Shown: one piece after another, positions 34,882 to 55,477 of the stretch
Position numbering within the stretch: position 1 is the stretch's first letter
Layout: every line of letters begins with the position of its first letter
Source of the DNA: Escherichia coli
Lineage (GTDB): Bacteria; Pseudomonadota; Gammaproteobacteria; Enterobacterales; Enterobacteriaceae
DNA: 64,000 nucleotides
Direction: 5' to 3' (one strand)
Assembly: GCF_003019035.1 (NCBI RefSeq)
Contig: NZ_CP027447.1
Notes under the pieces: model-generated
The model's input: the letters and a program-made list of their open reading frames with translations, nothing else
The model's database searches: none
What the model was told of the DNA's origin: nothing
Translations under genes and position numbers: made by a program

Positions 34882-34909
34882 TAGTAATTTATTATGTTAT
34901 TACAGTAAG

Positions 34910-35392
34910 TTACTGTACACGATCCTGCCATTTACTCATTGCATTCGTACCGGCTAACGTATGCTCCCAGGAAATATCTTCATAAATAAAGGCAATTCTC
35001 TCCTGTGGTTCCAGTTCTTTTTCCAGGACAGCATGCGGTGTGACAAAATCAATACTTGATATTCGGGCTTTTGACAGATTTATTTTATAATAAGGCTGGT
35101 AAATACCCGCTTTACTGGTTCGGTAGAGTATAAATTCACATAATGCCATTTTTTCATTGTCACTAAGTGCTTTTGCCAGCAATGGTGAGGATTTATCAAC
35201 CGGTTTGGTGATAATTAATTCATGATGATTGACATTTTGACTTCTTGAGATGGAATGCATTAACGCATAAACCATGATCTGATCTTTATGTTCTGGCTGC
35301 GCTTTGTTTCCGACAGAATCAAGCGTTGAGCAACCTGCTGAAATTAGCCCTTGTGTCTCTCCACTCAAAGATAAATAACTTATATTTGCCAT
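34910..35392 (-). CDS. Hcp-family protein (divergent TssD paralog)
   Basis: 160-aa ORF; YLSLSGETQGLISAGCSTLDSVGN aligns with canonical Hcp YISITGQTQGNITAGAFTADSVGN at 55478; similar C-terminal ...SWEH... motif. Confidence 0.75.
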   Translation of the reverse strand: MANISYLSLSGETQGLISAGCSTLDSVGNKAQPEHKDQIMVYALMHSISRSQNVNHHELIITKPVDKSSPLLAKALSDNEKMALCEFILYRTSKAGIYQPYYKINLSKARISSIDFVTPHAVLEKELEPQERIAFIYEDISWEHTLAGTNAMSKWQDRVQ

Positions 35393-35415
35393 GATAATCT
35401 CCTTTAATTAAATAA

Positions 35416-36769: not shown

Positions 36770-36778
36770 CCTGCCTCC

Positions 36779-40303: not shown

Positions 40304-40321
40304 AAAAACTCCTGTTCTCTT

Positions 40322-41737: not shown

Positions 41738-41741
41738 ATTT

Positions 41742-42485
41742 TTATTCTCCCGCCCAGTGGCAGGCGTCGCGTAGCGGCGCAATAACCCGTGCCAGCCCGT
41801 CAATGTTAAAGGTCAGCTTTCCGGCTGCGTTGTCTGCGCCGGTATCCACCGTCAGCGTTGTTGCGCCGAACAGTTGCTTAATTTCATCAATCCCGGACAG
41901 CCCCCGGCTGGACTCCAGCAGGGTGCCGTTCTCGCGCACAAACCAGTGGCTGCGCAATACCCGGCTGTCGGCATTCAGGGTGACGGCGATATCATGGACA
42001 TCCAGAGGGTGCACCAGCGCCACCTGCATCCGGGTGATATTGTCCACACAGCTGAACATCAGCACCGGGCGAGGCGGAACATGGCCGATAGCCGGGGTGG
42101 TTACCACCACCGTCGGGCGTTCCCCCGGCACCTGCGTCACCAGCAGCTCTGTGGTGTTGCCCTGGCGACGTTTTTCCTGCTCTATGGCACGGGTCCAGGC
42201 TTCGCCCACAAAACTGGCTTTGACCAGCGCCCCGTCAAACCCTGACGGGGACAGCGGTTCCAGCAGGCGGTCATAGCAGTCAAGCCGCTCCAGCGCCGCG
42301 AACTCCCGCCGACAGGACTGCATGGCCTGTAATGTGGCTGTCGCATCCGGCGGGGTCGCTGTGGCGACGGCTACCGCCACACCGGCCATTGACGATGTTT
42401 CTGCGGGCGCGGCACTGGCGGGTAAGCCCGCCATCAGGCCCGCAATAAACCATCCTGTCTGCCGGAAAACGCGCAACCTGCTCAT
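41742..42485 (-). CDS. T6SS-associated secreted/periplasmic protein (VasI-like by position)
   Basis: 247-aa ORF with signal peptide (…LMAGLPASAAPA); sits between clpV and tssA as vasI does in V. cholerae. Confidence 0.5.
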   Translation of the reverse strand: MSRLRVFRQTGWFIAGLMAGLPASAAPAETSSMAGVAVAVATATPPDATATLQAMQSCRREFAALERLDCYDRLLEPLSPSGFDGALVKASFVGEAWTRAIEQEKRRQGNTTELLVTQVPGERPTVVVTTPAIGHVPPRPVLMFSCVDNITRMQVALVHPLDVHDIAVTLNADSRVLRSHWFVRENGTLLESSRGLSGIDEIKQLFGATTLTVDTGADNAAGKLTFNIDGLARVIAPLRDACHWAGE

Positions 42486-45241
42486 AAAACCGTTTCATCT
42501 TCTGTGACGGACTCGTCGTCCAGAGCATCTTCCACATCTGCTGTGAACGTGCCGTCTGCCGCCGACAGCCGAATCCGGGCAATCGCCGTGTTGGCTGCCA
42601 TCTTCTGCAACAGCAGCAGGGAGAGCGGCGGCAGCATGTCGCCGTCAATGACCGATTCGAGCATCCTCGCGCCGTTTTCCGCTCGGGTGACGCGGCTCAT
42701 GATTTCGTCCGTCACTTCCGGCTCAATAATCACTTCCGCGCCAAAGCGACTGCGCAGCACGTTATCCAGACGGGTGAGTTTCCCGGCAATAATGGTGGCG
42801 AGCGTCTCTTTCGACAACGGCAGGTACGGCACCACTTCCATACGCGCCAGCAGGGCAGGTTTAAAGAAGTCCGCCAGCACCGGATAGAGGGCTTCCTGCA
42901 TGGTCTCCGGGTCATCGGCGTGTTCGACAATCACCTGGTAGCCAAGGTTGGAGGTGAGGAAGAAGACGATGTTTTTACAGTCAATCAGGCGACCTTCGCC
43001 GTCTGCCATCTCGCCCTTGTCAAACGCCTGGTAGAACAGGTTGAGGACATCCGGGTGCGCTTTTTCCACTTCATCGAGTAGCACCACCGAGTACGGTTTC
43101 TGGCGAATCGCTTCGGTCAGCACGCCGCCTTCGCCATAGCCAACGTAGCCCGGAGGCGAACCAATCAGGCGTGAAACGGTGTGTTTCTCCTGGAACTCGG
43201 ACATATTAATGGTGGTCAGGTACTGGCGACCGCCGTAGAGCAGTTCTGCCAGTTGCAGAACGGTTTCGGTTTTACCCACGCCGCTGGGGCCAGCCAGCAG
43301 GAACGCGCCGAGCGGGCGTCCCGGGCGGCGCAGGTCGGCGCGTGCAGTCAGCAGATGCTTATGCAGGCTGGCAATCGCCAGATCCTGGCCTTTGATGGTG
43401 TCGCCCAGCCATTTCGGCAGGTCGGTGATGACCGACATTTCATTCTGCGACAGGCGGTTAAGCGGAACGCCAGTCCATTCGGCAATCACCGCCGCAATCT
43501 GTTTTTTATCGACGTGCGGGGAGACCTGCAACCGGTCGTTATGCAGGGCGTCCAGTTCGGCAGTAAGCTGTGCCAGCCGTTGTACCGGGGAAACTGTTTC
43601 AGCGGTCTCTTCCGGCTGTTCGCTGCCAGCTTCATCAGCCGGTTCGGCATCGGTATTATCCTGTTCTGCCTCAGACGGCGTATCCTCCGCGGCATCTGCG
43701 TCCGGCAACGACGCCGCATCGTCTTCTGCCATACCCAGTAACTGCTGGCGCAGCGCGATAATTTCCTGTACCAGCGTCTGTTGCTGATGCCAGGCGGCTT
43801 CCAGTTCGTCCAGCGCCGTCAGCGTTTCATCATACTGCACCAGCACCTCCGTCATCCGTGAGGTGTCGGTACGCAGCCCGATGCGAAGCTCGCGCTCAAG
43901 CTGGCGAATTTCCGCCTCCTGCTGGTGGCTCAGGGTGGTCAGCGCCGAGATTTGCTTCGGTGGCGATGAAAGGTTAATGGCCACGCGGGCGCAGGCCGTA
44001 TCCAGCACATCAATGGCTTTGTCCGGCAACTGACGTCCGGAGAGATAACGCTCGCTTAATGTCGCAGCGGCCTGCAAGGCATCATCGTCAATCAGGACGC
44101 CGTGAGACTGTTCATAGACCGCCGACAGACCACGCAGAATAATGGTGGCTTCGGCGGCACTGGGTTCGCTGACCTTCACCAACTGGAAGCGGCGCGACAG
44201 GGCGGCATCTTTCTCGAAGTATTTTTTGTACTCGCTCCAGGTGGTGGCGGCGATGGTTTTCAGCTCGCCGCGCGCCAGTGCCGGTTTGAGCAGGTTGGAG
44301 ATATCCAGCCCGCCCTGCTGGTTGCCCGCCCCAATCAGGGTATGCGCTTCGTCGATAAACAGAATGACCGGCACCGGGGAGGATATGACCTCCGCCATCA
44401 GCCCCTTGAAGCGTTTTTCAAACTCACCTTTCACCGATGCCCCGGCCTGCAATGCACCCAGGTCAAGGGTCATAATGTCGGTGTTTTTCAGTTTGTCCGG
44501 CACCTGGCCTGCCACGATGCGCAGCGCCAGCCCTTCAATCAGCGCGCTTTTACCCACACCCGCTTCACCCACCACCACCGGATTGTTTTTACGACGGCGG
44601 CAGAGAATGTCGATCATCAGGTCGATTTCGTGGTCGCGGCACAGTACCGGATCAAGCCTGCCGTTACGGGCATCTTCGGTCATGTTTTTGGCGTAGCGGG
44701 CAAGCAGGGTGTCAGCAGCGTCCGTCAGTGTGCCTGCGCCTTTACCGTCTGCATCCGGCACGACTGATTCCGCCGACTCCTGTGTCCACTGCACAAAGTC
44801 CTGCTGCAGACGGTCACGGTTAATGCCGGTCAACAGCCGGGCGGCAGCAGGCGGTATATAACGCAGCGGCGAATGCAGCAGGGCCAGCAGCAACACGCCG
44901 CCGCGCAGTTCGCTGTGCTGCATCTCAGCCGACGCCAGCAGCCAGCCCTCTTTCAGCCACTCAACCAGCATCGGGGAAAACGCCGGGTAGCTGTCCGCAG
45001 AACGGGCGGTTGTGTAGTTCTCCACCGTCAGTGCCAGGCGCAACTCTTCCATGCCAATATCGCCCTGGCGGGTAATAACCCGCAGGTCACTGCGTGGCAT
45101 GGCGAGCATCTGAATAAGCACATGGCTGACGGTAATTTCCGCTGCCTGCTGGCTCATACATTCAGAGGCGGCCATCTCCAGCGCCTGGCGGGAGAACAGG
45201 TTAAGCCGTTTTACCAGCGTGGGAAGATCAATCTGGATCAT
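42482..45241 (-). CDS. clpV: T6SS AAA+ ATPase ClpV (TssH)
   Basis: ORF 42482-45355; start set at MIQIDLPTLVKRLN (45241); two AAA+ modules (Walker A GEAGVGKS and GPSGVGKT). Confidence 0.93.
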   Translation of the reverse strand: MIQIDLPTLVKRLNLFSRQALEMAASECMSQQAAEITVSHVLIQMLAMPRSDLRVITRQGDIGMEELRLALTVENYTTARSADSYPAFSPMLVEWLKEGWLLASAEMQHSELRGGVLLLALLHSPLRYIPPAAARLLTGINRDRLQQDFVQWTQESAESVVPDADGKGAGTLTDAADTLLARYAKNMTEDARNGRLDPVLCRDHEIDLMIDILCRRRKNNPVVVGEAGVGKSALIEGLALRIVAGQVPDKLKNTDIMTLDLGALQAGASVKGEFEKRFKGLMAEVISSPVPVILFIDEAHTLIGAGNQQGGLDISNLLKPALARGELKTIAATTWSEYKKYFEKDAALSRRFQLVKVSEPSAAEATIILRGLSAVYEQSHGVLIDDDALQAAATLSERYLSGRQLPDKAIDVLDTACARVAINLSSPPKQISALTTLSHQQEAEIRQLERELRIGLRTDTSRMTEVLVQYDETLTALDELEAAWHQQQTLVQEIIALRQQLLGMAEDDAASLPDADAAEDTPSEAEQDNTDAEPADEAGSEQPEETAETVSPVQRLAQLTAELDALHNDRLQVSPHVDKKQIAAVIAEWTGVPLNRLSQNEMSVITDLPKWLGDTIKGQDLAIASLHKHLLTARADLRRPGRPLGAFLLAGPSGVGKTETVLQLAELLYGGRQYLTTINMSEFQEKHTVSRLIGSPPGYVGYGEGGVLTEAIRQKPYSVVLLDEVEKAHPDVLNLFYQAFDKGEMADGEGRLIDCKNIVFFLTSNLGYQVIVEHADDPETMQEALYPVLADFFKPALLARMEVVPYLPLSKETLATIIAGKLTRLDNVLRSRFGAEVIIEPEVTDEIMSRVTRAENGARMLESVIDGDMLPPLSLLLLQKMAANTAIARIRLSAADGTFTADVEDALDDESVTEDETVL

Positions 45242-45249
45242 AAACGTCC

Positions 45250-46011
45250 TTATCGAAGTAATTTGTTTAGCTGGTGCAGGATGTCCTGCGTCTGGCTGTC
45301 CAGCCGCAACAGATAGAACAGGTAAAACAACGCCAGCACGACAACGCCACCACAAAAAATATGTTTAATGGTCAGGTGACTGATGAGCTGATAACGCCCG
45401 CCCTGGTTTTTTTTGTCCTGGTGTAACAGCGGGAAAGGGGCATCGCCGCGTAGTTTATGCAGGACGTGGTACAGGCGGCGGTAGATCTGCTCAAATTCTC
45501 CCTGATCCTGTGCTGCCACTTTGTAGCGCCCGCGAAATCCCAGAGAAAAACAGAGCCAGAGAAATTCCAGCAGATCCTGGTAACGTTTGGGTTCACGGAT
45601 CAGGCGCTCCAGCAGGATGAAAACTTTCTCGCCACCCCAGGCTTCGTTGTGGAAATGGACCAGCAATGACTGCTTGATCCACTCGTTCTTGTTCGACCAG
45701 CCGTTACCGAGCGCCGCTTCATCAATAAACGTGCAGAGGATGTAGCGAAACGAGATAATCACGCCCGGTTCGTAGCCCTGCTCCTGAAGCAGTTGCTCCA
45801 CGGCCTGAACATCCGTCACCACCTGAGCAAAAAGATGCTCCGGCATCGTCTGGCTGTTCATGGTTGAAAGGCGCATCACCATACCGAGGAGCGGCGTGGC
45901 TGCGTCGATCATCGGATTCAGGCTGTTGCCACGAAGCGCGAGATGGTAGTCGCGCTGGCCTTTTTCGTCGTGTCCGATAAATGGTGGCAGAGACAGTGAC
46001 TCCTCATCCAT
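45250..46011 (-). CDS. tssL: T6SS membrane-complex protein TssL (DotU family)
   Basis: 253-aa ORF with DotU-like cytoplasmic domain and single C-terminal TM segment; no peptidoglycan-binding extension. Confidence 0.85.
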   Translation of the reverse strand: MDEESLSLPPFIGHDEKGQRDYHLALRGNSLNPMIDAATPLLGMVMRLSTMNSQTMPEHLFAQVVTDVQAVEQLLQEQGYEPGVIISFRYILCTFIDEAALGNGWSNKNEWIKQSLLVHFHNEAWGGEKVFILLERLIREPKRYQDLLEFLWLCFSLGFRGRYKVAAQDQGEFEQIYRRLYHVLHKLRGDAPFPLLHQDKKNQGGRYQLISHLTIKHIFCGGVVVLALFYLFYLLRLDSQTQDILHQLNKLLR

Positions 46012-46015
46012 CGTC

Positions 46016-47347
46016 TTACCCTCTTATAGCCCACAGTTGCATATTCAGGTCCGGAAAACTGCCGGAGACATGCAGTGCAACGGCCCCGGCGGCAGCTATT
46101 TCAGCCCAGGCCTGGCCGCTTTTGTCGAGTTCGAAATAGCTGAACCCGGAATGGTAGGGAAGCTGGCGGGGAGCCACCATCAGTGCACGCAGAGGAATAC
46201 CGGGGATCTGCACACTGACCATATTGCGGATTTTTTCCGGCGAGGAAATTTTCGACTGCTGGATAAACTGGCGCTGGATCTGATCGACCGGCATGTTTGC
46301 CGCCACGGCCAGCACAAAGGTGGCAGATTGCAGCAGTTCTGTGTCATGGATATCGGCCTGCCAGATACCGTCACGCAGATGCAGCGGCAGATTGACGGCT
46401 CTTGGCGACAGTACGGTATGCAGCGCCCGTTTGACTTCCGGTAACAGCGTTTTAAATGTTTTGGTCAGGTCATGATGATCATACACATCAAGCGGGCAGG
46501 GCAGGCGCGACGGCTCGGTAAAGGTCATCAGTTCACCCAGCAACCCCGCAAGATCAAGGTAGAAATCTTCCGGGTGGAGCTGGGATCGACGAGCGCGATG
46601 GGTAAACCGGGTCTGGTTACGGTTAAGTAACTGCAACATCATAAATTCCGCCACATCCGCGATGCCGCTCTGCGCCGGAGAGCCAATGCGGTTTGCCAGA
46701 TCGCTTGCCCGTCCGCCAATGGCCCCCTGTACCTCTTTGAGATAAACACGCAGTTTCTTACTGACCTGAATATTCTGGCAGGAGGGGATAAAATCGTCAT
46801 CCAGCGTCAGGGAGCCGTCGGCATGGCGATCGCTGATACGGCAAAGCGGGAGCGTAATATAGGCGCTCATATCTTCTGCACCGCTCATAATGCGCGGCGT
46901 AAGTTGACCCAGCGTCAGTGTTCGCGCGTCACCTTCTTCTGAATGCAAATCCCGGACATCGGCATAATTCAGCCGGTAACGCCCGATTCGCCGCCCGTCG
47001 CTGATTTCATTTCTCACATCACTGGCGACCGGCAGAGCGAGGTAAATATTGCGGCTTCTTTCGTCCGGAAAATTTTGCGGGTGCAGCGGATCGGGCAGTG
47101 CGTCCTGGTCGGGGATAGAAAAGACGGTGCCGTCGGGCAGTGTGCCTGACGCGCTGTCAATCATGATCTTACCCTGCGCCAGCAGTTCATTGTTGAGGGT
47201 GAGTTCGGTAAATCCCCAGGATAAATCATTCATGGCCCGGAAACGCTGGTTATCCAGGTAGTCGTTGTAACGCTGCTGTTGCTGGAAATGGTGTGGGCGC
47301 ATCAGCATCCCTTCCTGCCACATCACCTTGTTGCGGGTGGTTGCCAT
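46016..47347 (-). CDS. tssK: T6SS baseplate protein TssK
   Basis: 443-aa ORF; N-terminus ...VMWQEGMLMRPHHFQQQQRY typical of TssK. Confidence 0.88.
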   Translation of the reverse strand: MATTRNKVMWQEGMLMRPHHFQQQQRYNDYLDNQRFRAMNDLSWGFTELTLNNELLAQGKIMIDSASGTLPDGTVFSIPDQDALPDPLHPQNFPDERSRNIYLALPVASDVRNEISDGRRIGRYRLNYADVRDLHSEEGDARTLTLGQLTPRIMSGAEDMSAYITLPLCRISDRHADGSLTLDDDFIPSCQNIQVSKKLRVYLKEVQGAIGGRASDLANRIGSPAQSGIADVAEFMMLQLLNRNQTRFTHRARRSQLHPEDFYLDLAGLLGELMTFTEPSRLPCPLDVYDHHDLTKTFKTLLPEVKRALHTVLSPRAVNLPLHLRDGIWQADIHDTELLQSATFVLAVAANMPVDQIQRQFIQQSKISSPEKIRNMVSVQIPGIPLRALMVAPRQLPYHSGFSYFELDKSGQAWAEIAAAGAVALHVSGSFPDLNMQLWAIRG

Positions 47348-47349
47348 AA

Positions 47350-47874
47350 TTATTCATCCTCTTTTTTCATTTCGATGCTGCTTTGACGTACATGCACCAG
47401 CAGGCGGTAATGGTGGCCGGTTCCTTCCACCGTCTCGATTTGTTTCCATTCAGTGGCCTGGTCATCGGAGAAATAGGCCACGACACCAATAAACTGCGTT
47501 TTCTCATCCAGCTTTACCGGCGGCAGGGTTTTGATGGTGTCCGGCAACAGGTTGAAATCCTGGTGGTCGATATAGTTTTTACCCAGCACATCCGGTAGCG
47601 GCGTACTGGCTATCTGGTCATAGTCGGCTGCCAGCAATTTTGAGTCGTCAGTCAGGTACACCAGTTGCACATCCACGGCGGCTGATTCACCCTCCGCATT
47701 GGTATTGGTGTCCGGTTCGGTCAGCAGGGTGACGGTTATTTCCGAAGGTTGCTCCTTCAGGCTCCCGACCTGGATATCCGGGTTTTTGATCACCTCACTG
47801 ATTTTTTTCGCCGTTTCGCAGCCGGTTAATATGACGCACATCAGCACGCAGGCCAGAAACGCCTTCCTGTTCAT
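47350..47874 (-). CDS. tssJ: T6SS outer-membrane lipoprotein TssJ
   Basis: 174-aa ORF with lipobox ILTGCE; position between tagH and tssK. Confidence 0.85.
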   Translation of the reverse strand: MNRKAFLACVLMCVILTGCETAKKISEVIKNPDIQVGSLKEQPSEITVTLLTEPDTNTNAEGESAAVDVQLVYLTDDSKLLAADYDQIASTPLPDVLGKNYIDHQDFNLLPDTIKTLPPVKLDEKTQFIGVVAYFSDDQATEWKQIETVEGTGHHYRLLVHVRQSSIEMKKEDE

Positions 47875-49172
47875 GCTTCCGGCTCCCGCTGTTTTTCACG
47901 AAGCACCCGGTCATAGACCTGGGCGTAGACCTCGTTAAACAGCATCTCAAACCCCTGCTGGCGATCGGAGGCCAGCTCTTCGTAATAATGGCTGTACATT
48001 TGCCATGCTCCGGCATCATCCAGCGGCTGGCGCAGTTCATGGCTGCGGCGGTACTGCACAAAGCGGCGCAGCAGATTTTGTGGTGAGAAGGCGTCCAGCA
48101 GGACACGAAGCGACTCCACAATCGCCGCCCGGTTAGCTTCTTCGTGGTGGCGGACATTGCGCAGGCTTTCACTGACAGCGGCGGGAGCCGCCAGATGTAC
48201 CGGACTTTTACCTTCGGCAAACATCACGTCGAGCGCGGTGGCGTAATCCATGTTCAGGCGCAGCGGGTTATCTTCCAGCGGGCGCAAATGTTTGTCTGAG
48301 AGGCTGTTACGCTGCTGCTGCAAATCAAGCAGACCTTTTATTGCGGCCTGTAACGTGCGTCCGGCCTCCTCCAGAAAATCATCCGCATCGTCGGAATTGC
48401 TCACGGTAAGCGAGCCGCCAAGACCGCGCAGTAAGGGGGTGACCGCAAGGTGGCGTTGCGCCATTTCTGCCACAGAGACGTCATCATTACGCTCGCCGGG
48501 GCTGGCATAAATGGGCGGCAGATCCATAAACGGCGTATTGATCCCCCCATTACTTGCCGGATCGGACAGCGGTGCCGATGGCCGGACAGCCGCAATGCCT
48601 GAAAGCGGATCGCCCGCGGTAATCAGGCTTTCGGACTGAAGTGCCTGGAGTGGATCGGCAGAAAAACCGTTTACCACGGTGTCTGCAAGCTGATGCCGGT
48701 GAGTCATTCCCGGATAGTGTGGCGCACCCTCCGTTGACAGCAGGGTATCCGTGAGCATATCGCGATTGGTGACGATGGTTTCGGGAGTGGCCATTTCCTC
48801 ATCGTAATGGGGGATATCTCCCCGGTTCAGATGAACCCTCACCATCAGACGCCCTATCTGGATCTCATCGCCCTGGCGCAGCTGTATCAGGTCTGATGTT
48901 GCTGTGACTTTTGCCTGGTTCAGCCACAGTTGTGCCGTCTGCGGGCGCAGACAAAATGTGCCATCGTGCAGGATAACGGTAAAGGCCTGAGCCGGAATGC
49001 TCTGCTGACGATCCTGTACCGACCAGTGGCATTCGGGGCCATGGCCGACATTTCCCTGCTGCGTGAACAGACAGCGCGCCGCCCGCCCGCTTTCCAGCTC
49101 ACTGCCGTTAATGACCTGCAATGAAAGCGTCTGTAGTTTCTCTTCCGGCATATTCTGCTCCGTGATTATCAT
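47871..49172 (-). CDS. tagH: T6SS FHA-domain protein TagH (Fha)
   Basis: 433-aa ORF with N-terminal FHA domain; ATGA overlap with tssJ. Confidence 0.85.
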   Translation of the reverse strand: MIITEQNMPEEKLQTLSLQVINGSELESGRAARCLFTQQGNVGHGPECHWSVQDRQQSIPAQAFTVILHDGTFCLRPQTAQLWLNQAKVTATSDLIQLRQGDEIQIGRLMVRVHLNRGDIPHYDEEMATPETIVTNRDMLTDTLLSTEGAPHYPGMTHRHQLADTVVNGFSADPLQALQSESLITAGDPLSGIAAVRPSAPLSDPASNGGINTPFMDLPPIYASPGERNDDVSVAEMAQRHLAVTPLLRGLGGSLTVSNSDDADDFLEEAGRTLQAAIKGLLDLQQQRNSLSDKHLRPLEDNPLRLNMDYATALDVMFAEGKSPVHLAAPAAVSESLRNVRHHEEANRAAIVESLRVLLDAFSPQNLLRRFVQYRRSHELRQPLDDAGAWQMYSHYYEELASDRQQGFEMLFNEVYAQVYDRVLREKQREPEA

Positions 49173-49175
49173 AAT

Positions 49176-50264
49176 TTACGACCGTACCCTGATGGTGACT
49201 GAGGGTCGTTCTTCCGGTGTGCCGAGGAAGCTGGTCCAGCCCAGCAGCGCACTTTTGTTATCGCCCAGGCGCATTGCGCCCACCTGCTCCGGTGCCAGCC
49301 CCAGATGTAAGTCCCAGGCAAGCTGATCGCGCAGGATGAAGGACACAAACATCGTCAGTGGCAGGAAGTTTTCGCCGGACGGCAGAAAAGAGAGGAGCTG
49401 TTTTCGGGTCAGGCTGGTAATACTGAGCTGGAATTTTCCGCTGAGATCGGGCACCCGTGTACCCAGAACAAAGTTGCCCAGTACCGATCTTCCGGCCAGT
49501 TTTTCGCCATTTTTAAGGGAATAGCTCCCCAGGCTGTTTTGCTGATCCGGTTCAATATCCACCTTGCGACGTTGCCAGTTTTGCAGCGTCACGTCTGACA
49601 AGTCAAAACAGTGTGACACCAGGCCGCAGATGATTTCCGGGGATCGTCCCGGATTTGCCAGGATCCCGGAATACGCCAGCATTTTGCTGTGATTAATCGC
49701 CAGCTTATCGCGAAGCTGGCGGTGGCCCAGCCCGACAAGGGAGTACATGCGCTGCGAGAACGCATCCACACCGCCGTTACGAAAACTGATGTGATAGCGG
49801 TACTTACGCCAGATATGCCAGACAAACTGGGTCAGGCGGTGGCTGAACATATCCAGAAAATCGCCTACCGGACTTTGTTCATGTACCGCTTTCCAGGCCA
49901 GGTGATCCAGGTAATAACCGGGGAGAGGCGACTGGCTCCCCTGTAACCCCATAAAGGTGGTGGTCATCCTGAATGCCCCTGACGTATCCCGTTTCAGCCC
50001 ACTGATATCACTGCACGGGAAGGCAAGGCTGGCATCGGCGCTGAAACGCAGGGTTTCCTGTGCCGGATCATCGCGCAGGGATAATTCCGGTGTCCCCTTT
50101 TCACCCTGTGCCAGGCGGTGCAACAGCTCCGCCATCGCAAAAAAATTGTAAGAGCAGGCGTTATGGAAAACCTGTGCCAGCGGATCATTCTGCTCTTTAT
50201 CTGCCGGGGGATGTCCCGGACTCAGATAAGAGGATGCTGCCCGGTTCTTTCCGTCCATTTCCAT
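49176..50264 (-). CDS. tssG: T6SS baseplate protein TssG
   Basis: 362-aa ORF directly downstream of tssF; start may be internal (43-nt overlap with tssF as drawn). Confidence 0.85.
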   Translation of the reverse strand: MEMDGKNRAASSYLSPGHPPADKEQNDPLAQVFHNACSYNFFAMAELLHRLAQGEKGTPELSLRDDPAQETLRFSADASLAFPCSDISGLKRDTSGAFRMTTTFMGLQGSQSPLPGYYLDHLAWKAVHEQSPVGDFLDMFSHRLTQFVWHIWRKYRYHISFRNGGVDAFSQRMYSLVGLGHRQLRDKLAINHSKMLAYSGILANPGRSPEIICGLVSHCFDLSDVTLQNWQRRKVDIEPDQQNSLGSYSLKNGEKLAGRSVLGNFVLGTRVPDLSGKFQLSITSLTRKQLLSFLPSGENFLPLTMFVSFILRDQLAWDLHLGLAPEQVGAMRLGDNKSALLGWTSFLGTPEERPSVTIRVRS

Positions 50265-52072
50265 GTCTCCTGGCTTTCTGTGTTCACAACGGTCAGCATG
50301 TGGAATGAGTTAACGCTGGCGTACAGCGACAGAAAATGCGAAAGCACCGTACCGAGCAGATACATTTCCCCTTCACAGACAAACGGCTCCGGGTGCAGAT
50401 ACAGCGTGGAGGCCAGCCCCCGGACGGGAATGCCCGTAAACAGGCGATCGACAGGGCGGGTCTCCAGACGCTCAATGGCATCCAGCTTTTGTTGTGACAG
50501 CCGCGCCGTCTGCGGATGATGGATTGCGTGGCGATCAAAGTTGGCGATGACCTGCTTCAGCGCGTCCGTATCTAGTAATGACAGATAATTCAGGTTCATG
50601 GCGGAGAGCAGGGACCAGTGCAGGCTGCCATCAATGACCGGCCAGAGCGGTTGCGTCGGGCGGGTAATGTTGCGAAATGAAGCAACAGCCGCATTTTTAC
50701 CGGTTGTGCCGGTGATATCGCCGGAACGAATTTGTGACGGAAGCTCACGGTTGGTACAGGTCAGCGATACCGAAACCACTTCATTACTGAGCAGCGATTC
50801 GTCTGACGGATAACTGCCATCAGCATGTATAAAAGCAAGGGTATGATCAAAGCCGCGATGGAACAGGGATGTTTTGGTCCGGTGATGCCAGTACACCACT
50901 TCCCGCTTCCGGCTGTATTCCATCTGATGGCTGAAACTTTCAAAGGCAGGCCACTGGCGCGCGGCCTGCGTCGAAACAGGACGCCCCAGATCTTTTTTCC
51001 TGAACATATCCTGCACCTGGCTCACCACGCCGTTAACGGAAAAGACATCGTAATGTTCCGGATAGTGGCGGCTGGGAACCAGCGGATAGTCTGCCCGCCG
51101 GTTGTCCAGCGTGATGGCTTCTGCATGGTGGATAAATAAATTAATGGCAGGTGCGCAATACAGGCGCAGAGAATCGCGGCGCAGCCGGATGTCCACGGGC
51201 AATGGGCGCGAAAAACGCAGTTGCAGGGTAAAGGATTCAGCCTGCAATCCGTCAGGCAACGCCGGGCAACCACAAAGATCAAAAAAGAGAAACGCATCCG
51301 GGTAACAGAAATACTCCTGAAGGATCCGGTAGCCGCTGTGGACGTTTTTCGGCCAGGGCAGCATGGCATCCTGCGGCTCAAAACCGACAGCTTTCAGCAT
51401 AAACTCAGGCAGGCGAATATGCTGTTCACCCACAGTCAGGTCGGCACCCTGCAAGTATTCACAGAACCATAAATAAAGCTGGTCACGGGTATAGTTGTCG
51501 TCATTGCCGAGCCAGAAGCGAAGTTTGTTCAGATCCAGCGTGCGGAAGTCCGTTCCCGGTGCGACCGAAAAGGTGATGTTGATAACACCATTACGGGTCG
51601 TACTGCGGTTTTCAATCTGCTCCAGGCGAACGGGCAGCAGCCAGATATCCCGGCAGAGGGTGAAGGTACAGGGAGGCGGCTCCTCCTTTTTAGCATCGGA
51701 GGGCAGCACTTCATCGACTCTAATTTCCCCGGCGTTGGTTGTAAACTGCTCATTACGGGGGATTAACACCGGCACAGAAGACTTATCCATATCCGGCGTA
51801 TATTCAATAAGGGTCATTGCCGGAACCGGACGCAGGTAATTAGGCCACAGCATCTTAATAAGCCCGTGCGTCAGTTCTGGGAATTCATCCTCAATTTTCT
51901 GGCGGAGATTGCCGGTAAGAAAAGCCACGCCTTCCAGCAGGCGTTCAATATCCGGATCCGCATCTTTTTCGGCCAGGAAGCGGGCCAGATGGGGTTTTTC
52001 CGTTGCCAGCAGCTTGCTGAGCTGGCGCAGGTAATCGAGTTCTTCCCGGAAATAGCGTTCTTCAAATTCCAT
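50222..52072 (-). CDS. tssF: T6SS baseplate protein TssF
   Basis: 616-aa ORF MEFEERYFREELDYLRQLSKLLATEKPHLARFL... Confidence 0.88.
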   Translation of the reverse strand: MEFEERYFREELDYLRQLSKLLATEKPHLARFLAEKDADPDIERLLEGVAFLTGNLRQKIEDEFPELTHGLIKMLWPNYLRPVPAMTLIEYTPDMDKSSVPVLIPRNEQFTTNAGEIRVDEVLPSDAKKEEPPPCTFTLCRDIWLLPVRLEQIENRSTTRNGVINITFSVAPGTDFRTLDLNKLRFWLGNDDNYTRDQLYLWFCEYLQGADLTVGEQHIRLPEFMLKAVGFEPQDAMLPWPKNVHSGYRILQEYFCYPDAFLFFDLCGCPALPDGLQAESFTLQLRFSRPLPVDIRLRRDSLRLYCAPAINLFIHHAEAITLDNRRADYPLVPSRHYPEHYDVFSVNGVVSQVQDMFRKKDLGRPVSTQAARQWPAFESFSHQMEYSRKREVVYWHHRTKTSLFHRGFDHTLAFIHADGSYPSDESLLSNEVVSVSLTCTNRELPSQIRSGDITGTTGKNAAVASFRNITRPTQPLWPVIDGSLHWSLLSAMNLNYLSLLDTDALKQVIANFDRHAIHHPQTARLSQQKLDAIERLETRPVDRLFTGIPVRGLASTLYLHPEPFVCEGEMYLLGTVLSHFLSLYASVNSFHMLTVVNTESQETWKWTERTGQHPLI

Positions 52073-52075
52073 CTG

Positions 52076-52489
52076 TCAGTCCACCCGGTAATGCTGGCTG
52101 CCATTCGGTGCCATATCAAATTCAAGCACTTCATGCGTTTCGTTAAATGTCACCCAGGCTGTAATATGAAACGTCATATCCAGCGGGCTGGCGGCGGATG
52201 AAACCACAGCCTGCACTTCAGCGTGTGAGATCCGGGGTTCATAGCGTTCTATACATTGCGCGATGGCCCGACTCATTGATTGGCGGAAGTTTTCAGCCCC
52301 TTCCGGTTCATCAATGCCCAGTTCAGGCGCACCCCGGCAACTACCGGACCGGGTATTAAGAATGTTTCGCAGGTTCTGGCGAATGGACTGCCTGAGCGCA
52401 TGAATACTGCTTCCCTGCCGGTTTCTGGCCGGTGAGGCTTCCATACGCTCAAAAAGAGAACCTGTGGTTCTTTCCCGATCCGGTATCAT
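52076..52489 (-). CDS. tssE: T6SS baseplate protein TssE (gp25-like)
   Basis: 137-aa ORF between tssC and tssF. Confidence 0.85.
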   Translation of the reverse strand: MIPDRERTTGSLFERMEASPARNRQGSSIHALRQSIRQNLRNILNTRSGSCRGAPELGIDEPEGAENFRQSMSRAIAQCIERYEPRISHAEVQAVVSSAASPLDMTFHITAWVTFNETHEVLEFDMAPNGSQHYRVD

Positions 52490-52495
52490 GGCGTG

Positions 52496-53971
52496 TTACT
52501 CCCTGTCTAACCGGCCAACCAGGGAAAGCTCAAAGTTTGCCCCCATAAATTTAAAATGGGGCCGCACGCTCAGCGCGACCTGGTACCAGCCGGGTTCGCC
52601 TTCCACATCCATAACCTCAACTTTGGCAGCGCGCAGAGGTTTACGGCTGCGCACGTCCGCAGGCGGGTTTTCCTGGTCGGCAACATACTGACGGATCCAG
52701 GTATTAAGCTCTCTTTCTAAGTCGCTCCTTTCTTTCCATGACCCCAGTTGTTCACGCTGCAACACCTTGATGTAGTGCGCTAACCGGTTGATGATGAAGA
52801 GATAAGGAAGCTGCGTACCCAGCTTATAGTTGGTTTCTGCGTCTTTGCCCGGAAAGTGCTTCGGTTTTTGTACCGAGTTTGCAGAGAAAAAGGCTGCATT
52901 ATCAGAGTCTTTACGCATGGTAAGGGTGATAAAACCCTCTTCAGCCAGTTCAAATTCGCGGCGATCGGTGACCAGCACCTCGGTTGGGATTTTGGCCTGA
53001 ATCTGACCCATCGTTTCGAACAGATGCACCGGCAGATCTTTCACTGCGCCGCCGCTTTGCGGACCGATGATATTTGGACACCAGCGGTATTTGGCAAAAC
53101 TGTCTGCGACATTGCACGCCAGCATCCAGGCCGTATTACCCCACAGATAATCTTCGTGGTTCCGGCTGACATCTTCGTGATAGTTAAAGTTCTTAACAGG
53201 GTTATCTGTTGGTGAATAAGGCTGGCGAAGCAGGAAGCGGGGTGCCGTAAGCCCTAAATAGCGCGAATCTTCCGAGTCACGCAGGGCGCGCCATTTGGTG
53301 TAGGCCGGACCTTCAAAGATGGCATAAAGATCTTTGATATTAGGCAGTTCGGTCCACGAGTTCAGCCCCATAAATTCCGGGGAAACGGAGGACAGGAACG
53401 GTGCGTGCGCCATTGCGCCCACGGCACTGACGTATTGCAGCAGTTTCATGTCAGGCGCGGTATTTTTGAACTCATAAGCGCCCAGCACGGCAGCGATGGG
53501 TTCACCGCCAAACTGTCCGAAACCGGACGAATAAACGTGCTTATAAAATCCGGACTGAATAATTTCTGGCGCAAACTCAAAGTCTTCCAGAAGTTCCTGC
53601 TTGGTGACATGAAGCACGTTGACCTTGATGTTTTCACGGAAATCAACGCGATCCACCATTGTTTTCAGTGAGCGCCAGAACGACTCGACCTGCTGAAAGG
53701 CAGGCGCATGGATGATGACATCCATCTGGCGGCTGATGCGTTCATCAATATCTGCAATCATGCTGTCCACGGCCAGTTTATTGACCGGTTCGGCAGATGC
53801 AGTGGATTGCAGGATGCTGGCAATAAAGGCTGTCACACCCTGGCGGGCAACGTCATAACCTTCCGAACCGGGCTGAATACGGGTCTGTGCCATGATTTGA
53901 TCAAGCAGCGACGATGCCTGCTCAGGCTGCCCGGCATGACTGGAAACGAGTTCCTCTTCCTGTAAAGACAT
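52496..53971 (-). CDS. tssC: T6SS contractile sheath large subunit TssC (VipB)
   Basis: 491-aa ORF with conserved TssC core. Confidence 0.93.
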   Translation of the reverse strand: MSLQEEELVSSHAGQPEQASSLLDQIMAQTRIQPGSEGYDVARQGVTAFIASILQSTASAEPVNKLAVDSMIADIDERISRQMDVIIHAPAFQQVESFWRSLKTMVDRVDFRENIKVNVLHVTKQELLEDFEFAPEIIQSGFYKHVYSSGFGQFGGEPIAAVLGAYEFKNTAPDMKLLQYVSAVGAMAHAPFLSSVSPEFMGLNSWTELPNIKDLYAIFEGPAYTKWRALRDSEDSRYLGLTAPRFLLRQPYSPTDNPVKNFNYHEDVSRNHEDYLWGNTAWMLACNVADSFAKYRWCPNIIGPQSGGAVKDLPVHLFETMGQIQAKIPTEVLVTDRREFELAEEGFITLTMRKDSDNAAFFSANSVQKPKHFPGKDAETNYKLGTQLPYLFIINRLAHYIKVLQREQLGSWKERSDLERELNTWIRQYVADQENPPADVRSRKPLRAAKVEVMDVEGEPGWYQVALSVRPHFKFMGANFELSLVGRLDRE

Positions 53972-54021
53972 ACTGAAAATCCTTCTGTTTTAGCTGTGTT
54001 TCTGAAACCGGCTTTTCGCCA

Positions 54022-54246
54022 TCAGTGAAGTACGCGCTGCCAGTGCGACGCGCTCTGCTGAAACTCACAAAAATGGATAATCTCATCCAATAGATCACTG
54101 ATACGGCGATCCAGTGTTGTAATCAGCGCAGCCACACCATCCTGGTTGATTTCAACGGACGGGCTGAAACATACCTGGTAAACCACCTGCAGAATGTCTG
54201 CAACAGAGAGGTGGTATGTCCCGGAGATATTTTTGTGTGCCGTCAT
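54022..54246 (-). other. Short ORF (74 aa) resembling the N-terminal segment of TssC; possible gene fragment
   Basis: ...VAALITTLDRRISDLLDEIIHFCEFQQSASHWQRVL aligns by eye (about 40% identity) with TssC residues ...VDSMIADIDERISRQMDVIIHAPAFQQVESFWRSL. Confidence 0.3.
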
Positions 54247-54280
54247 GCCTGGATAACCCTGTTTAATGAAATAGTGGTGG

Positions 54281-54781
54281 TTATTTATTGCTCACCCGGC
54301 CGATTTCTTTGAGCAACTGCTCGCGGGACTCCTCATTTTCCAACAATGCCTGGAGCTGGGTACGGAATGCCGGAAGGTTACCCATCGGCCCCTTCAGTGC
54401 AGTCAGTGCTTCACGCAGTTCCAGCAATTTATTCACTTCCGGAACCTGCCGGGCCACGCTATCTGGTGAAAAATCATCCAGTGATTTGATATTCAGCGCC
54501 ACATTCAGTTCATCGTCTGTTGTGCTTCCCTTCAGCGTGGCGGGGACAGTAAAATTGAGGCCAATGGCTGCTTCAGCCATCACTGCACCGAAATTGTGCT
54601 TGTTAACGGAAACTGCCTGACGTTCATCCAGTGGGGATGTTTCCTGCGTATTTCCGGTATCGCCGACAACGAGCATGTTAAGCGGAAGTTCCACTTCAGC
54701 CGTCTGGCCATCTGTTTTTGGGACATACGATATATTAATACGCTCGCGAGGCGCGACGCTGCCTTCAAATTTTTTGCTCAT
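54281..54781 (-). CDS. tssB: T6SS contractile sheath small subunit TssB (VipA)
   Basis: 166-aa ORF MSKKFEGSVAPRERINISYVPKTDGQTAEVELPLNMLVVGD... Confidence 0.9.
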   Translation of the reverse strand: MSKKFEGSVAPRERINISYVPKTDGQTAEVELPLNMLVVGDTGNTQETSPLDERQAVSVNKHNFGAVMAEAAIGLNFTVPATLKGSTTDDELNVALNIKSLDDFSPDSVARQVPEVNKLLELREALTALKGPMGNLPAFRTQLQALLENEESREQLLKEIGRVSNK

Positions 54782-55165
54782 AAAAGTGATCCGTCATGTT
54801 ATCTCGTACAGGCCATGAACACGGCATATTTGTACCGAAAAAAAATATCGGCAATGCCGCCCTAATGGCGGTGAAAATAAAATCACCACTCCTTCATCAC
54901 CCCGCATTCTACGCTTCAAAATAAATAAGAAAAGGACTTTTTATCGATCGTAAAGAGGGGTATTCTGCAAGCGTTAAATAGATTGTGTGAACCTGTGCAA
55001 TTCGCGCCAGGTGTATTATGGCAATAATTTAAATATAGAGCTTTTATGTAACTTATTGAATTATATAATAATTTCATTAAACATAAGCTAATCTGATGAT
55101 TGCTTGTTTATATATTTGTTTTGTGATTGATTAAGTGGGTATTTTTAAGGAATATCTCAAAAATT

Positions 55166-55186
55166 ATCAAAATGATAATTCAGAAA
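55166..55186. promoter_or_regulatory. Weak Fur-box-like sequence in the tssB/hcp divergent control region
   Basis: AATGATAAT core matches the central 9 nt of the Fur consensus GATAATGATAATCATTATC; about 11/19 overall. Confidence 0.25.
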
Positions 55187-55477
55187 GGATAAATACAATA
55201 TTTATTCATGATTCAGCTTTGGCCATTTTATGGAGGCAATACGGACTTTGAACAGTTGGGTATGGTTATCCAGATATATATTATTAACTTATTGCTGAAT
55301 AAGAGATTTAATGATTTTAAAAATAGTTTTTACGACAACCGTAAATTCTAGCTCGGTTTGTATGTAAAAAATACTGAAAAATGATGCGGTTCCGTGAAGT
55401 GAGCTGCATCTGCCTGTCTGGGATTAACGGCAGGTCATTGTAAGTAGTAATTAACCACGTTAACAAGGAGTTTACAA

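What the first reader, a model, noticed from the sequence alone, without database searches (positions are those of the whole stretch)
47871..52076. Tight junctions and overlaps indicate translational coupling in the T6SS operon
tagH/tssJ overlap by 4 nt (ATGA), tssE and tssF are 3 nt apart, clpV/vasI-like overlap by 4 nt, and tssF/tssG overlap by up to 43 nt depending on the true tssG start. Together with the 5-9 nt gaps elsewhere this supports one long polycistronic unit from tssB to the small membrane protein, about 21 kb.
Basis: seen in the sequence. Interest (0 to 1): 0.2.

Follow-up and report, generated by a model that had tools for sequence, protein, structure and literature searches.

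The report
Compact junctions in E. coli T6SS operon
The tightly packed and overlapping gene boundaries are real, but they are the ordinary, already described layout of a well-known E. coli type VI secretion operon, including a conserved 37-base tssF/tssG overlap previously proposed to couple translation of two partner proteins.

Summary
The window's minus strand, 54781 to 33463, carries the aspV-island type VI secretion cluster of E. coli (APEC "T6SS2", the EHEC EDL933 cluster). It is 100% identical to strain SCU-301.

- tssE/tssF has a 3-nt spacer.
- tagH/tssJ shares ATGA.
- clpV/vasI shares ATGA.
- tssF/tssG overlaps by 37 nt, or 43 nt from the alternative ATG.

"5-9 nt gaps elsewhere" is only partly true. 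The other spacers are 2, 4, 4, 6, 8, 9, 10, 18, 23, 24, 34, 43 and 50 nt.

Comparison with 80 related loci, 10 distant TssG homologues and the unrelated CFT073 cluster places the tssG start at ATG 50258. The 37-nt overlap holds in 64 of 78 related loci, 9 of 10 distant homologues and CFT073. The Shine-Dalgarno (SD) sequence and start codon of tssG are built from invariant Glu and Trp codons of the TssF C-terminus.

This overlap, with putative coupling, was published for Serratia in 2014.

Translational coupling is plausible at the ATGA and short-spacer junctions. It is most plausible for vasI, which has no SD. It remains unproven, because nearly every gene has its own SD.

A single 21-kb transcript fits published operon predictions but was not tested here. 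The finding is ordinary and already known.

The parts
33463..54781 (-). Main T6SS unit: tssB, hyp74, tssC, tssE, tssF, tssG, tagH, tssJ, tssK, tssL, clpV(tssH), vasI, tssA(vasJ), tssM, vasL, hcp2A, a 304-aa ORF and ykfM. It holds 18 co-directional ORFs over 21,319 nt.
   Evidence: ORF list and translations. PGAP annotation of the 100%-identical SCU-301 record and of strain 1428. Pfam hits.
52076..52489 (-). tssE, a gp25-like baseplate wedge protein of 137 aa.
   Evidence: PF04965, E = 3.5e-15. PGAP names it tssE.
52073..52075 (-). 3-nt spacer (CAG) between the tssE stop TGA and the tssF ATG.
   Evidence: The homologous junction is -1 to +9 nt in 74 of 75 related loci.
50222..52072 (-). tssF, 616 aa.
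   Evidence: PF05947, E = 2.5e-130.
50222..50258 (-). 37-nt tssF/tssG overlap. The tssG ATG at 50258-50256 is formed by the last base of a Lys codon plus the TG of the invariant Trp codon of TssF.
   Evidence: The same 37-nt overlap appears in 64 of 78 related loci, in 9 of 10 distant homologues and in the CFT073 cluster.
50267..50271 (-). AGGAG Shine-Dalgarno sequence for tssG, 8 nt upstream of ATG 50258. It is encoded by the Gln-Glu codons of TssF.
   Evidence: Anti-SD duplex of -7.4 kcal/mol at 7-8 nt spacing. An SD-like core at 6-10 nt is present in 76 of 77 non-redundant junctions.
49176..50258 (-). tssG, 360 aa, starting MDGKNR.
   Evidence: PF06996, E = 3.9e-86. The N-terminal M-x-G-x-N/D-R is conserved in homologues at 54-81% identity. 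No other in-frame start lies upstream of the conserved NFF motif.
47871..49151 (-). tagH (Fha), 426 aa. The start is ATG 49151 (MPEEK), 24 nt after the tssG stop. The alternative ATG at 49172 is not conserved.
   Evidence: PF00498 and PF20232. N-terminal comparison across related loci. SD of -5.8 kcal/mol.
47871..47874 (-). ATGA: the tagH stop TGA overlaps the tssJ ATG.
   Evidence: The junction is -4 in 38 and -1 in 30 of 74 related loci. tssJ also has its own SD (GGGAG, -6.6 kcal/mol).
47350..47874 (-). tssJ lipoprotein, 174 aa.
   Evidence: PF12790, E = 6.1e-23.
42482..42485 (-). ATGA: the clpV stop overlaps the vasI ATG. vasI has no SD.
   Evidence: Anti-SD duplex of only -2.4 kcal/mol, close to the background mean of -2.9.
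54022..54246 (-). 74-aa ORF in the 309-nt tssB-tssC spacer. It is a diverged copy of TssC residues 50-102.
   Evidence: BLASTP E = 2e-8 against the window's TssC. tblastn hits fall inside tssC of other loci, and the long spacer is confined to one clade.
54782..55477 (.). 696-nt AT-rich divergent control region between tssB (minus strand) and hcp2B (plus strand).
   Evidence: Promoter-like sites on both strands. No sigma-54 consensus in this region. H-NS and CpxR control is reported for the homologous APEC and EHEC region (PMC5874247, PMC6534853, PMC5363993).

Best explanation
The stretch is the baseplate and membrane-anchor segment (tssE-tssF-tssG-tagH-tssJ) of the main minus-strand operon of the E. 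coli aspV-island T6SS (APEC T6SS2, the EHEC cluster).

Its junctions have the compact geometry typical of operons that encode multi-subunit machines.

Shown here:
- The genes are co-directional, with no spacer longer than 50 nt.
- Two junctions share ATGA, and eight more are 2-10 nt apart.
- tssG starts at ATG 50258, 37 nt inside tssF.
- The tssG start uses an AGGAG and an ATG supplied by the invariant Glu and Trp codons of the TssF C-terminus.
- This 37-nt arrangement is conserved from 100% down to about 29% TssG identity and across different cluster architectures.

Inferred:
- Ribosomes finishing tagH and clpV reinitiate at the overlapping AUG of tssJ and vasI. For vasI this may be the main route, because it has no SD.
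- At the 2-10 nt spacers, reinitiation and SD-driven de novo initiation both contribute.
- tssG is initiated mainly through its own SD. That SD is kept unstructured by tssF-translating ribosomes and is intermittently occluded by them.
- Placing the nascent TssG next to freshly made TssF suits two proteins that are unstable alone and assemble 2:1.
- The whole set is most likely transcribed from the AT-rich, H-NS-silenced region upstream of tssB.
For: Identity:
- The region is 100% identical to E. coli SCU-301, with PGAP tss annotations.
- Pfam hits support tssE, tssF, tssG, tagH, tssJ, vasI, tssA and vasL.
- The EHEC and APEC literature describes the same aspV cluster.

Geometry:
- Junctions were read directly from the sequence.

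Conservation:
- Junction statistics cover 72-78 loci from Enterobacterales, Aeromonas and Pasteurellaceae.
- Nine of 10 distant homologues show the 37-nt overlap in independent gene calls.
- CFT073's differently ordered cluster also shows a 37-nt overlap.

Selection on the tssG start:
- The Trp codon TGG is invariant in 77 of 77 non-redundant junctions.
- The preceding codon ends in A in 69 of 77 and in G in 8 of 77. It never ends in C or T.
- When that residue is Arg, the codon is CGA in 9 of 9 cases, although CGA makes up 5.5% of Arg codons in tssF.
- The Glu codon that supplies the SD is GAG in 70% of cases, against 43% across tssF.

SD strengths:
- Measured.

Literature:
- The tssF/tssG overlap and putative coupling were described in Serratia (PMC4072051).
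- TssF and TssG stabilise each other (PMC4604203).
- The wedge stoichiometry is (TssK)6(TssF)2(TssG)1(TssE)1 (PMC6300606).
- Reinitiation works at -8..+10 nt, and such pairs are enriched for complex subunits (PMC10666635).
Against:
- Fifteen of 18 genes have their own SD, so coupling is not required for their translation.
- Five spacers exceed 20 nt.
- The -37 overlap lies outside the distance range where reinitiation was measured to work.
- No structure sequesters the tssG ribosome-binding site.
- Within one genome, the enrichment of very short spacers over the E. coli background is weak (P = 0.08).
- The related loci share ancestry, so their counts are not independent events.
- The low-GC 3' module may have its own promoter.
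Confidence: 0.78

Rival explanations
1. Compactness without functional coupling. Every cistron is initiated independently from its own SD. The short spacers and overlaps are inherited genome economy and have no regulatory role.
For: - Fifteen of 18 starts have an SD of -5 to -12 kcal/mol at canonical spacing.
- E. coli pairs 9-12 nt apart are thought to initiate independently (PMC10666635).
- The enrichment of -8..+6 junctions is modest (7 of 17 against 24%, P = 0.08).
- No RNA structure masks the tssG site.
Against: - vasI has no SD yet shares ATGA with clpV.
- The tagH/tssJ, tssJ/tssK and tssF/tssG distances stay fixed across genera while tssG/tagH drifts from 2 to 40 nt.
- Codon choice at the tssG start is biased well beyond what the protein sequence requires.
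- Overlapping pairs tested in native E. coli genes are tightly coupled (PMC10666635).
Confidence: 0.3
2. The 21 kb is not one transcription unit. It is a main operon plus one or more internal units. In particular, the low-GC cargo module (hcp2A, the 304-aa ORF, ykfM) would be driven by its own promoter. The unit may also be subdivided at the 309-nt tssB-tssC spacer.
For: - GC falls to 35-39% at 33-35 kb, against 53-61% in the core.
- Promoter-like hexamers lie at 34919-34891, in the hcp2A/304-aa spacer, and at 34692-34664 (10 of 12 matches).
- The spacers here are 23 and 43 nt.
- K-12 retains only a yafU pseudogene and ykfM without any upstream T6SS genes.
- The tssB-tssC spacer is unusually long in this clade.
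Against: - Promoter-like hits are expected by chance in AT-rich DNA. The region as a whole has 16 against 10.3 +/- 3.3 in shuffles.
- No terminator-like site precedes these genes on the minus strand.
- The APEC literature draws vipA2-to-hcp2A as one cluster (PMC5874247).
- Internal promoters would add to read-through transcription, not exclude it.
Confidence: 0.35
3. tssG starts elsewhere: at ATG 50264 (43-nt overlap), or at the downstream ATG 50135, as some gene callers predict with their 314-319 aa products. The second choice would remove the overlap.
For: - ATG 50264 is in frame and is the first start of the ORF.
- Database clusters of 314-aa products exist (P0005 and P0006).
Against: - The AGGAG lies only 2 nt from 50264 but 8 nt from 50258.
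- Homologues at 54-81% identity align their Met with 50258.
- Most related loci have no ATG at the -43 position.
- ATG 50135 has no SD (+2.2 kcal/mol) and would delete the conserved NFF motif at Pfam model positions 4 onwards.
Confidence: 0.05

Closest known systems
E. coli aspV-island T6SS: APEC/NMEC 'T6SS2' and the EHEC EDL933 z0243-z0275 cluster (Vibrio cholerae VAS-like gene order)
   Same: - Same chromosomal site, next to tRNA-Asp aspV at 32137-32210.
- Same gene order: tssB-tssC-tssE-tssF-tssG-tagH-tssJ-tssK-tssL-clpV-vasI-vasJ-tssM-vasL-hcp.
- A divergent hcp2B-vgrG-Rhs arm.
- 95-100% DNA identity to more than 2,000 complete E. coli genomes.
   Different: Nothing of substance. This allele has an intact clpV where SCU-301 has a 1-nt deletion. 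Its clpV-vasI segment is a rarer allele: at least 99% identity in 83 records and 90-95% in 2,691.
Serratia marcescens Db10 tssF/tssG overlapping pair, proposed to be translationally coupled (English et al. 2014, PMC4072051)
   Same: The tssG start and ribosome-binding site lie inside the 3' end of tssF. The products form a TssF2-TssG1 complex and are unstable alone.
   Different: That paper describes one organism and states that adjacency is conserved. The overlap is exactly 37 nt in most clusters examined. The SD and start codon are built from invariant TssF codons. Coupling was not tested experimentally in either case.
Termination-reinitiation (TeRe) coupled gene pairs with ATGA or TGATG overlaps (Huber et al. 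2019 and 2023)
   Same: tagH/tssJ and clpV/vasI have the canonical -4 ATGA. The partners belong to one machine.
   Different: The dependence of downstream translation on upstream translation is untested here. tssJ also carries a good SD. tssF/tssG (-37) falls outside the TeRe distance class.
Phage fr/MS2 coat-lysis overlap, the classic long overlap behind the 'scanning' reinitiation model (Adhin and van Duin 1990, as summarised in PMC10666635)
   Same: The downstream start lies roughly 34-37 nt upstream of the upstream gene's stop, in another reading frame.
   Different: tssG has a strong SD at ideal spacing, so it does not need scanning ribosomes. No experiment links tssF termination to tssG initiation.

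Membership tests
Canonical proteobacterial T6SS (T6SSi) main gene cluster | Presence of the core genes tssA, B, C, E, F, G, J, K, L, M, clpV/tssH, hcp and vgrG. | tested here: met
   - Pfam hits for TssE, TssF, TssG, TssJ, TssA/VasJ and VasL, plus the accessory TagH and VasI.
- PGAP names for tssB, C, E, F, G, J, K, L (icmH), H, A, M, hcp and vgrG on the identical record.
E. coli aspV-island T6SS (APEC T6SS2 / EHEC cluster) | Insertion next to tRNA-Asp aspV, with V. cholerae-like gene order and a divergent hcp2B-vgrG arm. | tested here: met
   - A tRNA lies at 32137-32210 and is annotated tRNA-Asp in the identical record.
- The order matches.
Operon (single polycistronic transcription unit) | All genes on one strand with spacers too short for a terminator plus a promoter. 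| tested here: met
   Eighteen ORFs lie on the minus strand, and the largest spacer between ORFs is 50 nt.
Operon (single polycistronic transcription unit) | No internal terminators or promoters. | tested here: inconclusive
   - The consensus scans find no more sites than in shuffles: terminator-like 15 against 12.7 +/- 3.5, and 9 against 12.9 +/- 4.2.
- One promoter-like site lies in the core, at 51745-51717.
- Several lie in the AT-rich 3' module.
- Consensus scans neither prove nor exclude function.
Operon (single polycistronic transcription unit) | Physical co-transcription of all genes on one RNA. | not testable with these tools
   No transcript data were available. The papers found report RT-PCR only for the divergent hcp2B operon (PMC5874247).
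Translationally coupled pair by termination-reinitiation | Stop and start overlap (-4 or -1), or a distance within about -8 to +10 nt. | tested here: met
   Met for 10 of 17 junctions, including tssE/F (+3), tagH/tssJ (-4) and clpV/vasI (-4). Not met for tssF/G (-37), tssG/tagH (+24) and five others (criteria from PMC10666635).
Translationally coupled pair by termination-reinitiation | Downstream translation depends on translation of the upstream gene. | not testable with these tools
   This needs reporter fusions with premature stops. The indirect hint is that vasI lacks an SD (-2.4 kcal/mol), while the other downstream genes have one.
Conserved tssF/tssG overlapping pair (as in Serratia Db10) | The tssG start codon and ribosome-binding site lie inside the 3' end of tssF, conserved among T6SS clusters. 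| tested here: met
   - ATG 50258 and AGGAG 50267-50271 lie inside tssF.
- The overlap is -37 in 64 and -34 in 12 of 78 related loci.
- It is -37 in 9 of 10 distant homologues and in CFT073.
Fha/TagH 'gene-in-gene' dual isoform (V. cholerae, PMC13389060) | An in-frame internal start codon with its own ribosome-binding site just before the C-terminal domain. | tested here: not met
   - An in-frame ATG exists at residue 230 (window 48464), 12 residues before the T6SS_FHA_C domain.
- It has no SD (-1.5 kcal/mol).
- Met occupies that column in only 33 of 72 homologues.
- Alignment to the V. cholerae protein itself was not done.

The most novel reading that the evidence does not exclude
The exact 37-nt tssF/tssG overlap is a near-universal, selected feature of proteobacterial T6SS clusters. 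In it, the tssG SD and start codon are written into the invariant Glu and Trp codons of the TssF C-terminus. It would act as a stoichiometry and assembly device. tssF-translating ribosomes would keep the tssG site open but partly occluded, or would reinitiate backwards inefficiently. That would yield roughly one TssG per two TssF, made side by side for co-translational formation of the TssF2-TssG1 wedge core.
Probability: 0.2. Interest if true: 0.4.

Novelty: already known. Interest (0 to 1): 0.14.

Why it matters
It matters little beyond annotation hygiene.

The locus is a well-studied E. coli T6SS. Its compact operon layout is what one expects for a multi-subunit machine. The one unusual junction, tssF/tssG, has already been flagged in the literature as a likely coupled pair.

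The useful by-products are practical:
- The TssG start (ATG 50258) and TagH start (ATG 49151) can be fixed by comparative evidence.
- PGAP's CTG start for TssM looks wrong.
- Gene callers that trim TssG to avoid the overlap produce truncated proteins.

If the conserved 37-nt overlap were shown to set the 2:1 TssF:TssG ratio, it would be a neat example of stoichiometry encoded in gene overlap. That would be an incremental advance.

Tried and rejected
- **RNA structure masking the tssG ribosome-binding site.** This would make tssG translation depend on tssF ribosomes. The 131-nt fold around it is no more stable than shuffles (z = +0.88). Rejected.
- **Sigma-54 promoter.** V. cholerae T6SS genes use VasH and RpoN. 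No TGGCAC-N5-TTGCW-like site lies in the tssB upstream region, the window-wide count equals chance (40 against 42.9), and the cluster has no vasH. Rejected.
- **Known RNA elements.** Rfam finds only rRNA, tRNA and StyR-44 elsewhere in the window, and nothing in the T6SS cluster.
- **Internal terminators or promoters splitting the core.** The consensus scans are not above shuffle expectation. This neither supports nor excludes them.
- **A downstream tssG start that would abolish the overlap (ATG 50135).** Rejected on SD, Pfam coverage and homologue N-termini.
- **An upstream tagH start (49172) that would make a 3-nt tssG/tagH spacer.** Not conserved in more distant homologues.
- **V. cholerae-type internal Fha isoform in tagH.** No SD before the positionally plausible Met230.
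- **Literature search for operon mapping of this cluster's main unit.** None found. Only the divergent hcp2B operon has RT-PCR support.
- **Within-genome statistical enrichment of short spacers.** Weak (P = 0.08), so I relied on cross-species conservation instead.

Full report
**What the locus is**

The region 47000-53000 is 100% identical to E. coli strain SCU-301. It matches more than 2,000 complete E. coli genomes at 95% identity or more. The whole 33000-56000 stretch is 100% identical to SCU-301 apart from one base.

PGAP annotates these genes there and in strain 1428: tssB, a 74-aa hypothetical, tssC, tssE, tssF, tssG, tagH, tssJ, tssK, icmH/tssL, tssH/clpV, vasI, tssA, tssM, a VasL-domain protein, an Hcp, a hypothetical and ykfM. 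All lie on one strand. They sit next to tRNA-Asp, dnaQ and rnhA on one side and a divergent hcp-vgrG-Rhs arm on the other.

Pfam independently confirms TssE, TssF, TssG, TagH (FHA plus T6SS_FHA_C), TssJ, VasI, VasJ/TssA and VasL.

This is the aspV-island T6SS described in EHEC EDL933, where it is H-NS-silenced (PMC5363993). In APEC it is called T6SS2. There the literature draws a major vipA2-to-hcp2A cluster transcribed opposite to an hcp2B-vgrG-xmtU/V operon (PMC5874247 and PMC6534853).

E. coli K-12 retains only aspV-yafT-ykfM-yafU' at this site.

**The observation**

I read every junction on the minus strand. Negative values are overlaps.

| Junction | Distance (nt) | Note |
|---|---|---|
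| tssB/hyp74 | +34 | |
| hyp74/tssC | +50 | |
| tssC/tssE | +6 | |
| tssG/tagH | +24 | +3 from the alternative ATG 49172 |
| tssJ/tssK | +2 | |
| tssK/tssL | +4 | |
| tssL/clpV | +8 | |
| vasI/tssA | +4 | |
| tssA/tssM | +18 | from GTG 40303 |
| tssM/vasL | +10 | |
| vasL/hcp2A | +23 | |
| hcp2A/304-aa ORF | +43 | |
| 304-aa ORF/ykfM | +9 | |

The span from 54781 to 33463 is 21,319 nt. "5-9 nt gaps elsewhere" is a simplification, since six spacers are 18-50 nt.

**Is it more than chance?**

Inside one genome, the answer is only weakly yes. In E. coli, 24% of all unidirectional gene pairs fall between -8 and +6 nt (PMC10666635). Here 7 of 17 do, giving a binomial P of 0.08.

The stronger test is comparative. 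A scan of species-representative genomes with a TssG alignment returned 80 loci. They come from Citrobacter, Yokenella, Buttiauxella, Rahnella, Yersinia, Serratia, Photorhabdus, Morganella, Aeromonas, Pasteurellaceae and others, at 47-100% TssG identity. About 75 of them keep the order tssC-E-F-G-tagH-J-K-L.

Starts were picked by homology, codon type and SD:

| Junction | Result across related loci |
|---|---|
| tssC/E | +2 to +10 in 71 of 74 |
| tssE/F | -1 to +9 in 74 of 75 |
| tssF/G | -37 in 64 and -34 in 12 of 78 |
| tagH/tssJ | -4 in 38 and -1 in 30 of 74 |
| tssJ/K | +1 or +2 in 68 of 74 |
| tssG/tagH | drifts from +2 to +40 |
| tssK/L | ranges from -4 to +23 (outliers to +79) |

Some junctions are therefore held fixed while neighbours drift. 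That argues for constraint and not mere inheritance. The loci share ancestry, so the counts are not independent events.

**The tssF/tssG overlap and the true tssG start**

Four lines of evidence point to ATG 50258:

- Homologues at 54-81% identity begin M-x-G-x-N/D-R, aligned with the second ATG.
- AGGAG at 50267-50271 is 8 nt from that ATG and only 2 nt from ATG 50264.
- The next in-frame start, ATG 50135, has no SD and would delete the conserved NFF motif where the Pfam TssG model begins.
- Most related loci have no start at -43.

The overlap is therefore 37 nt.

Ten distant TssG representatives (29-41% identity) came from an all-against-library HMMER search. They sit in differently organised clusters, such as tssE-tssF-tssG-clpV. 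Independent gene calls give a 37-nt overlap in nine of them and a 4-nt overlap in one. PGAP's annotation of the unrelated Sci-1-type cluster of CFT073 also gives 37 nt.

The reason is visible in the sequence. TssF ends with the motif [Q/K/G]-E-x-[Y/W]-x-W-x4-G-Q-x2-[L/I]-[I/M]-stop.

- The Glu codon, usually GAG, supplies the SD together with the preceding codon.
- The invariant Trp codon is TGG in 77 of 77 non-redundant junctions. It supplies the TG of the start codon.
- The third base of the preceding codon supplies the A (69 of 77) or G (8 of 77). It is never C or T.
- Where that residue is Arg, the codon is the rare CGA in 9 of 9 cases, against 5.5% of Arg codons across tssF.
- GAG is used at the SD-forming Glu in 70% of junctions, against 43% tssF-wide.

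Codon choice is thus biased beyond what the TssF protein requires. That is evidence for selection on the tssG initiation site itself.

**How it probably works**

Native E. coli gene pairs show efficient termination-reinitiation only for overlaps or very short spacers. There is a 40-80% loss at +14 nt and near-abolition at +38 nt. Pairs at -8..+10 nt are 4.5-fold enriched for subunits of heteromeric complexes (PMC10666635).

By that yardstick, 10 of the 17 junctions here are reinitiation-competent.

Anti-SD duplex energies show that almost every gene also has its own SD. Values are -5.0 to -12.1 kcal/mol at 4-9 nt spacing, against a background mean of -2.9. Coupling is therefore permitted but not required.

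The exception is vasI (-2.4 kcal/mol), which shares ATGA with clpV. It is the best candidate for obligatory reinitiation.

For tssF/tssG, the distance is outside the measured reinitiation range. tssG has a strong, well-spaced SD, and no RNA structure sequesters it (z = +0.88).

The most likely mechanism for tssG is SD-driven initiation inside a region kept single-stranded, and intermittently occluded, by tssF-translating ribosomes. Back-scanning reinitiation may contribute. The classic 34-nt fr coat-lysis overlap is the precedent (summarised in PMC10666635).

The biological logic is established. TssF and TssG are unstable alone and stabilise each other (PMC4604203; PMC4072051). They form a TssF2-TssG1 heterotrimer within a (TssK)6(TssF)2(TssG)1(TssE)1 wedge (PMC6300606).

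Whether the overlap tunes the 2:1 ratio is inference only.

**The polycistronic claim**

Support:

- All 18 ORFs are co-directional with spacers of 50 nt or less.
- Consensus scans find no excess of terminator-like or promoter-like sites.
- No sigma-54 site lies upstream of tssB.
- No Rfam element lies in the cluster.
- Published APEC work treats vipA2-to-hcp2A as one cluster.

Cautions:

- The last three genes sit in 35-39% GC DNA, against 53-61% for the core.
- The spacers there are 23 and 43 nt.
- Promoter-like hexamers lie at 34919-34891 and 34692-34664.
- The tssB-tssC spacer is 309 nt in this clade.

I found no transcript mapping of the main unit in the searchable literature. One long transcript, possibly supplemented by internal promoters, remains the default reading but is unproven.

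**Comparison with what is known, and verdict**

The cluster is a known one. The compact junctions are typical of operons for protein machines.

The tssF/tssG overlap, with its internal ribosome-binding site and "likely translational coupling", was drawn for Serratia marcescens Db10 in 2014 (PMC4072051, Figure 6A legend). That paper also remarked that tssF-tssG adjacency is conserved.

- A firm assignment of the TssG and TagH starts.
- The exact 37-nt conservation across subtypes.
- The codon-level explanation for it.
- A sober classification of which junctions could support reinitiation.

None of this changes the category. The finding is real, ordinary and already known, and its interest is low.

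Noticed in passing
window 54022-54246 (-), within the 309-nt tssB-tssC spacer: The 74-aa 'hypothetical' ORF is a diverged copy of TssC residues about 50-102 (BLASTP E = 2e-8). The long tssB-tssC spacer (293-312 nt) occurs only in the E. coli T6SS2/Citrobacter/Yokenella/Atlantibacter clade. In 69 other loci the spacer is 17-62 nt. It looks like a remnant of a partial tssC 5' duplication or recombination.
   Followed up: partly
window 40213-40303 (-), tssM start: PGAP starts tssM at a CTG (40213) that has no SD (-0.9 kcal/mol) and would cut into the first hydrophobic segment. GTG 40303 has AGGAG 5 nt upstream (-6.9 kcal/mol) and lies 18 nt after the tssA stop. The annotated start is probably wrong.
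   Followed up: partly
window 42482-42505 (-), vasI start: vasI is the only core-cluster gene that combines an ATGA overlap with no detectable SD (-2.4 kcal/mol against a background mean of -2.9). It is the best candidate for obligatory termination-reinitiation.
   Followed up: partly
window about 43385, inside clpV: The window has one base (T in GATCCTGGCC) that is missing in the otherwise identical SCU-301 record, where PGAP flags tssH as frameshifted. clpV is intact in the window (919 aa from ATG 45241).
   Followed up: yes
window 33463-35392 (-): The 3' module is 35-39% GC, against 53-61% for the T6SS core. It holds hcp2A, a 304-aa ORF with no Pfam hit and the small membrane protein YkfM. 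It looks like a separately acquired Hcp-effector-immunity cargo. K-12 keeps only a yafU pseudogene (the 3' part of the 304-aa gene) and ykfM at this site.
   Followed up: partly
window 56005-56036 (+): A strong terminator-like hairpin (14-bp stem with 8 GC pairs, followed by TTTGTATT) sits directly after hcp2B (55478-55996) and before vgrG (56206). Yet APEC RT-PCR reports hcp2B-to-xmtV as one operon. It may be an attenuator that sets a high Hcp:VgrG ratio.
   Followed up: no
window 48462-48464 (-), tagH codon 230: A 2026 paper shows that V. cholerae Fha makes a second isoform from an internal start (M262) with its own ribosome-binding site. E. coli tagH has an in-frame ATG 12 codons before the T6SS_FHA_C domain but no SD. 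Met occupies that column in 33 of 72 homologues, so conservation outside Vibrio is unclear.
   Followed up: partly
window 42000-43200 compared with 47000-53000: The cluster is allelically mosaic among E. coli. The tssE-tssJ segment is 95-99% identical in about 2,250 genomes. The clpV-vasI segment is at least 99% identical in only 83 records and 90-95% identical in 2,691.
   Followed up: no
L094 (E. coli CFT073, NZ_CP058222.1 1137999-1170220): In this CFT073 record PGAP annotates separate tssF and tssG genes overlapping by 37 nt. Brunet et al. 2015 describe a tssF'-'tssG fusion in CFT073. A single indel inside the 37-nt overlap would fuse the frames, so this may reflect strain or sequencing differences.
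   Followed up: no
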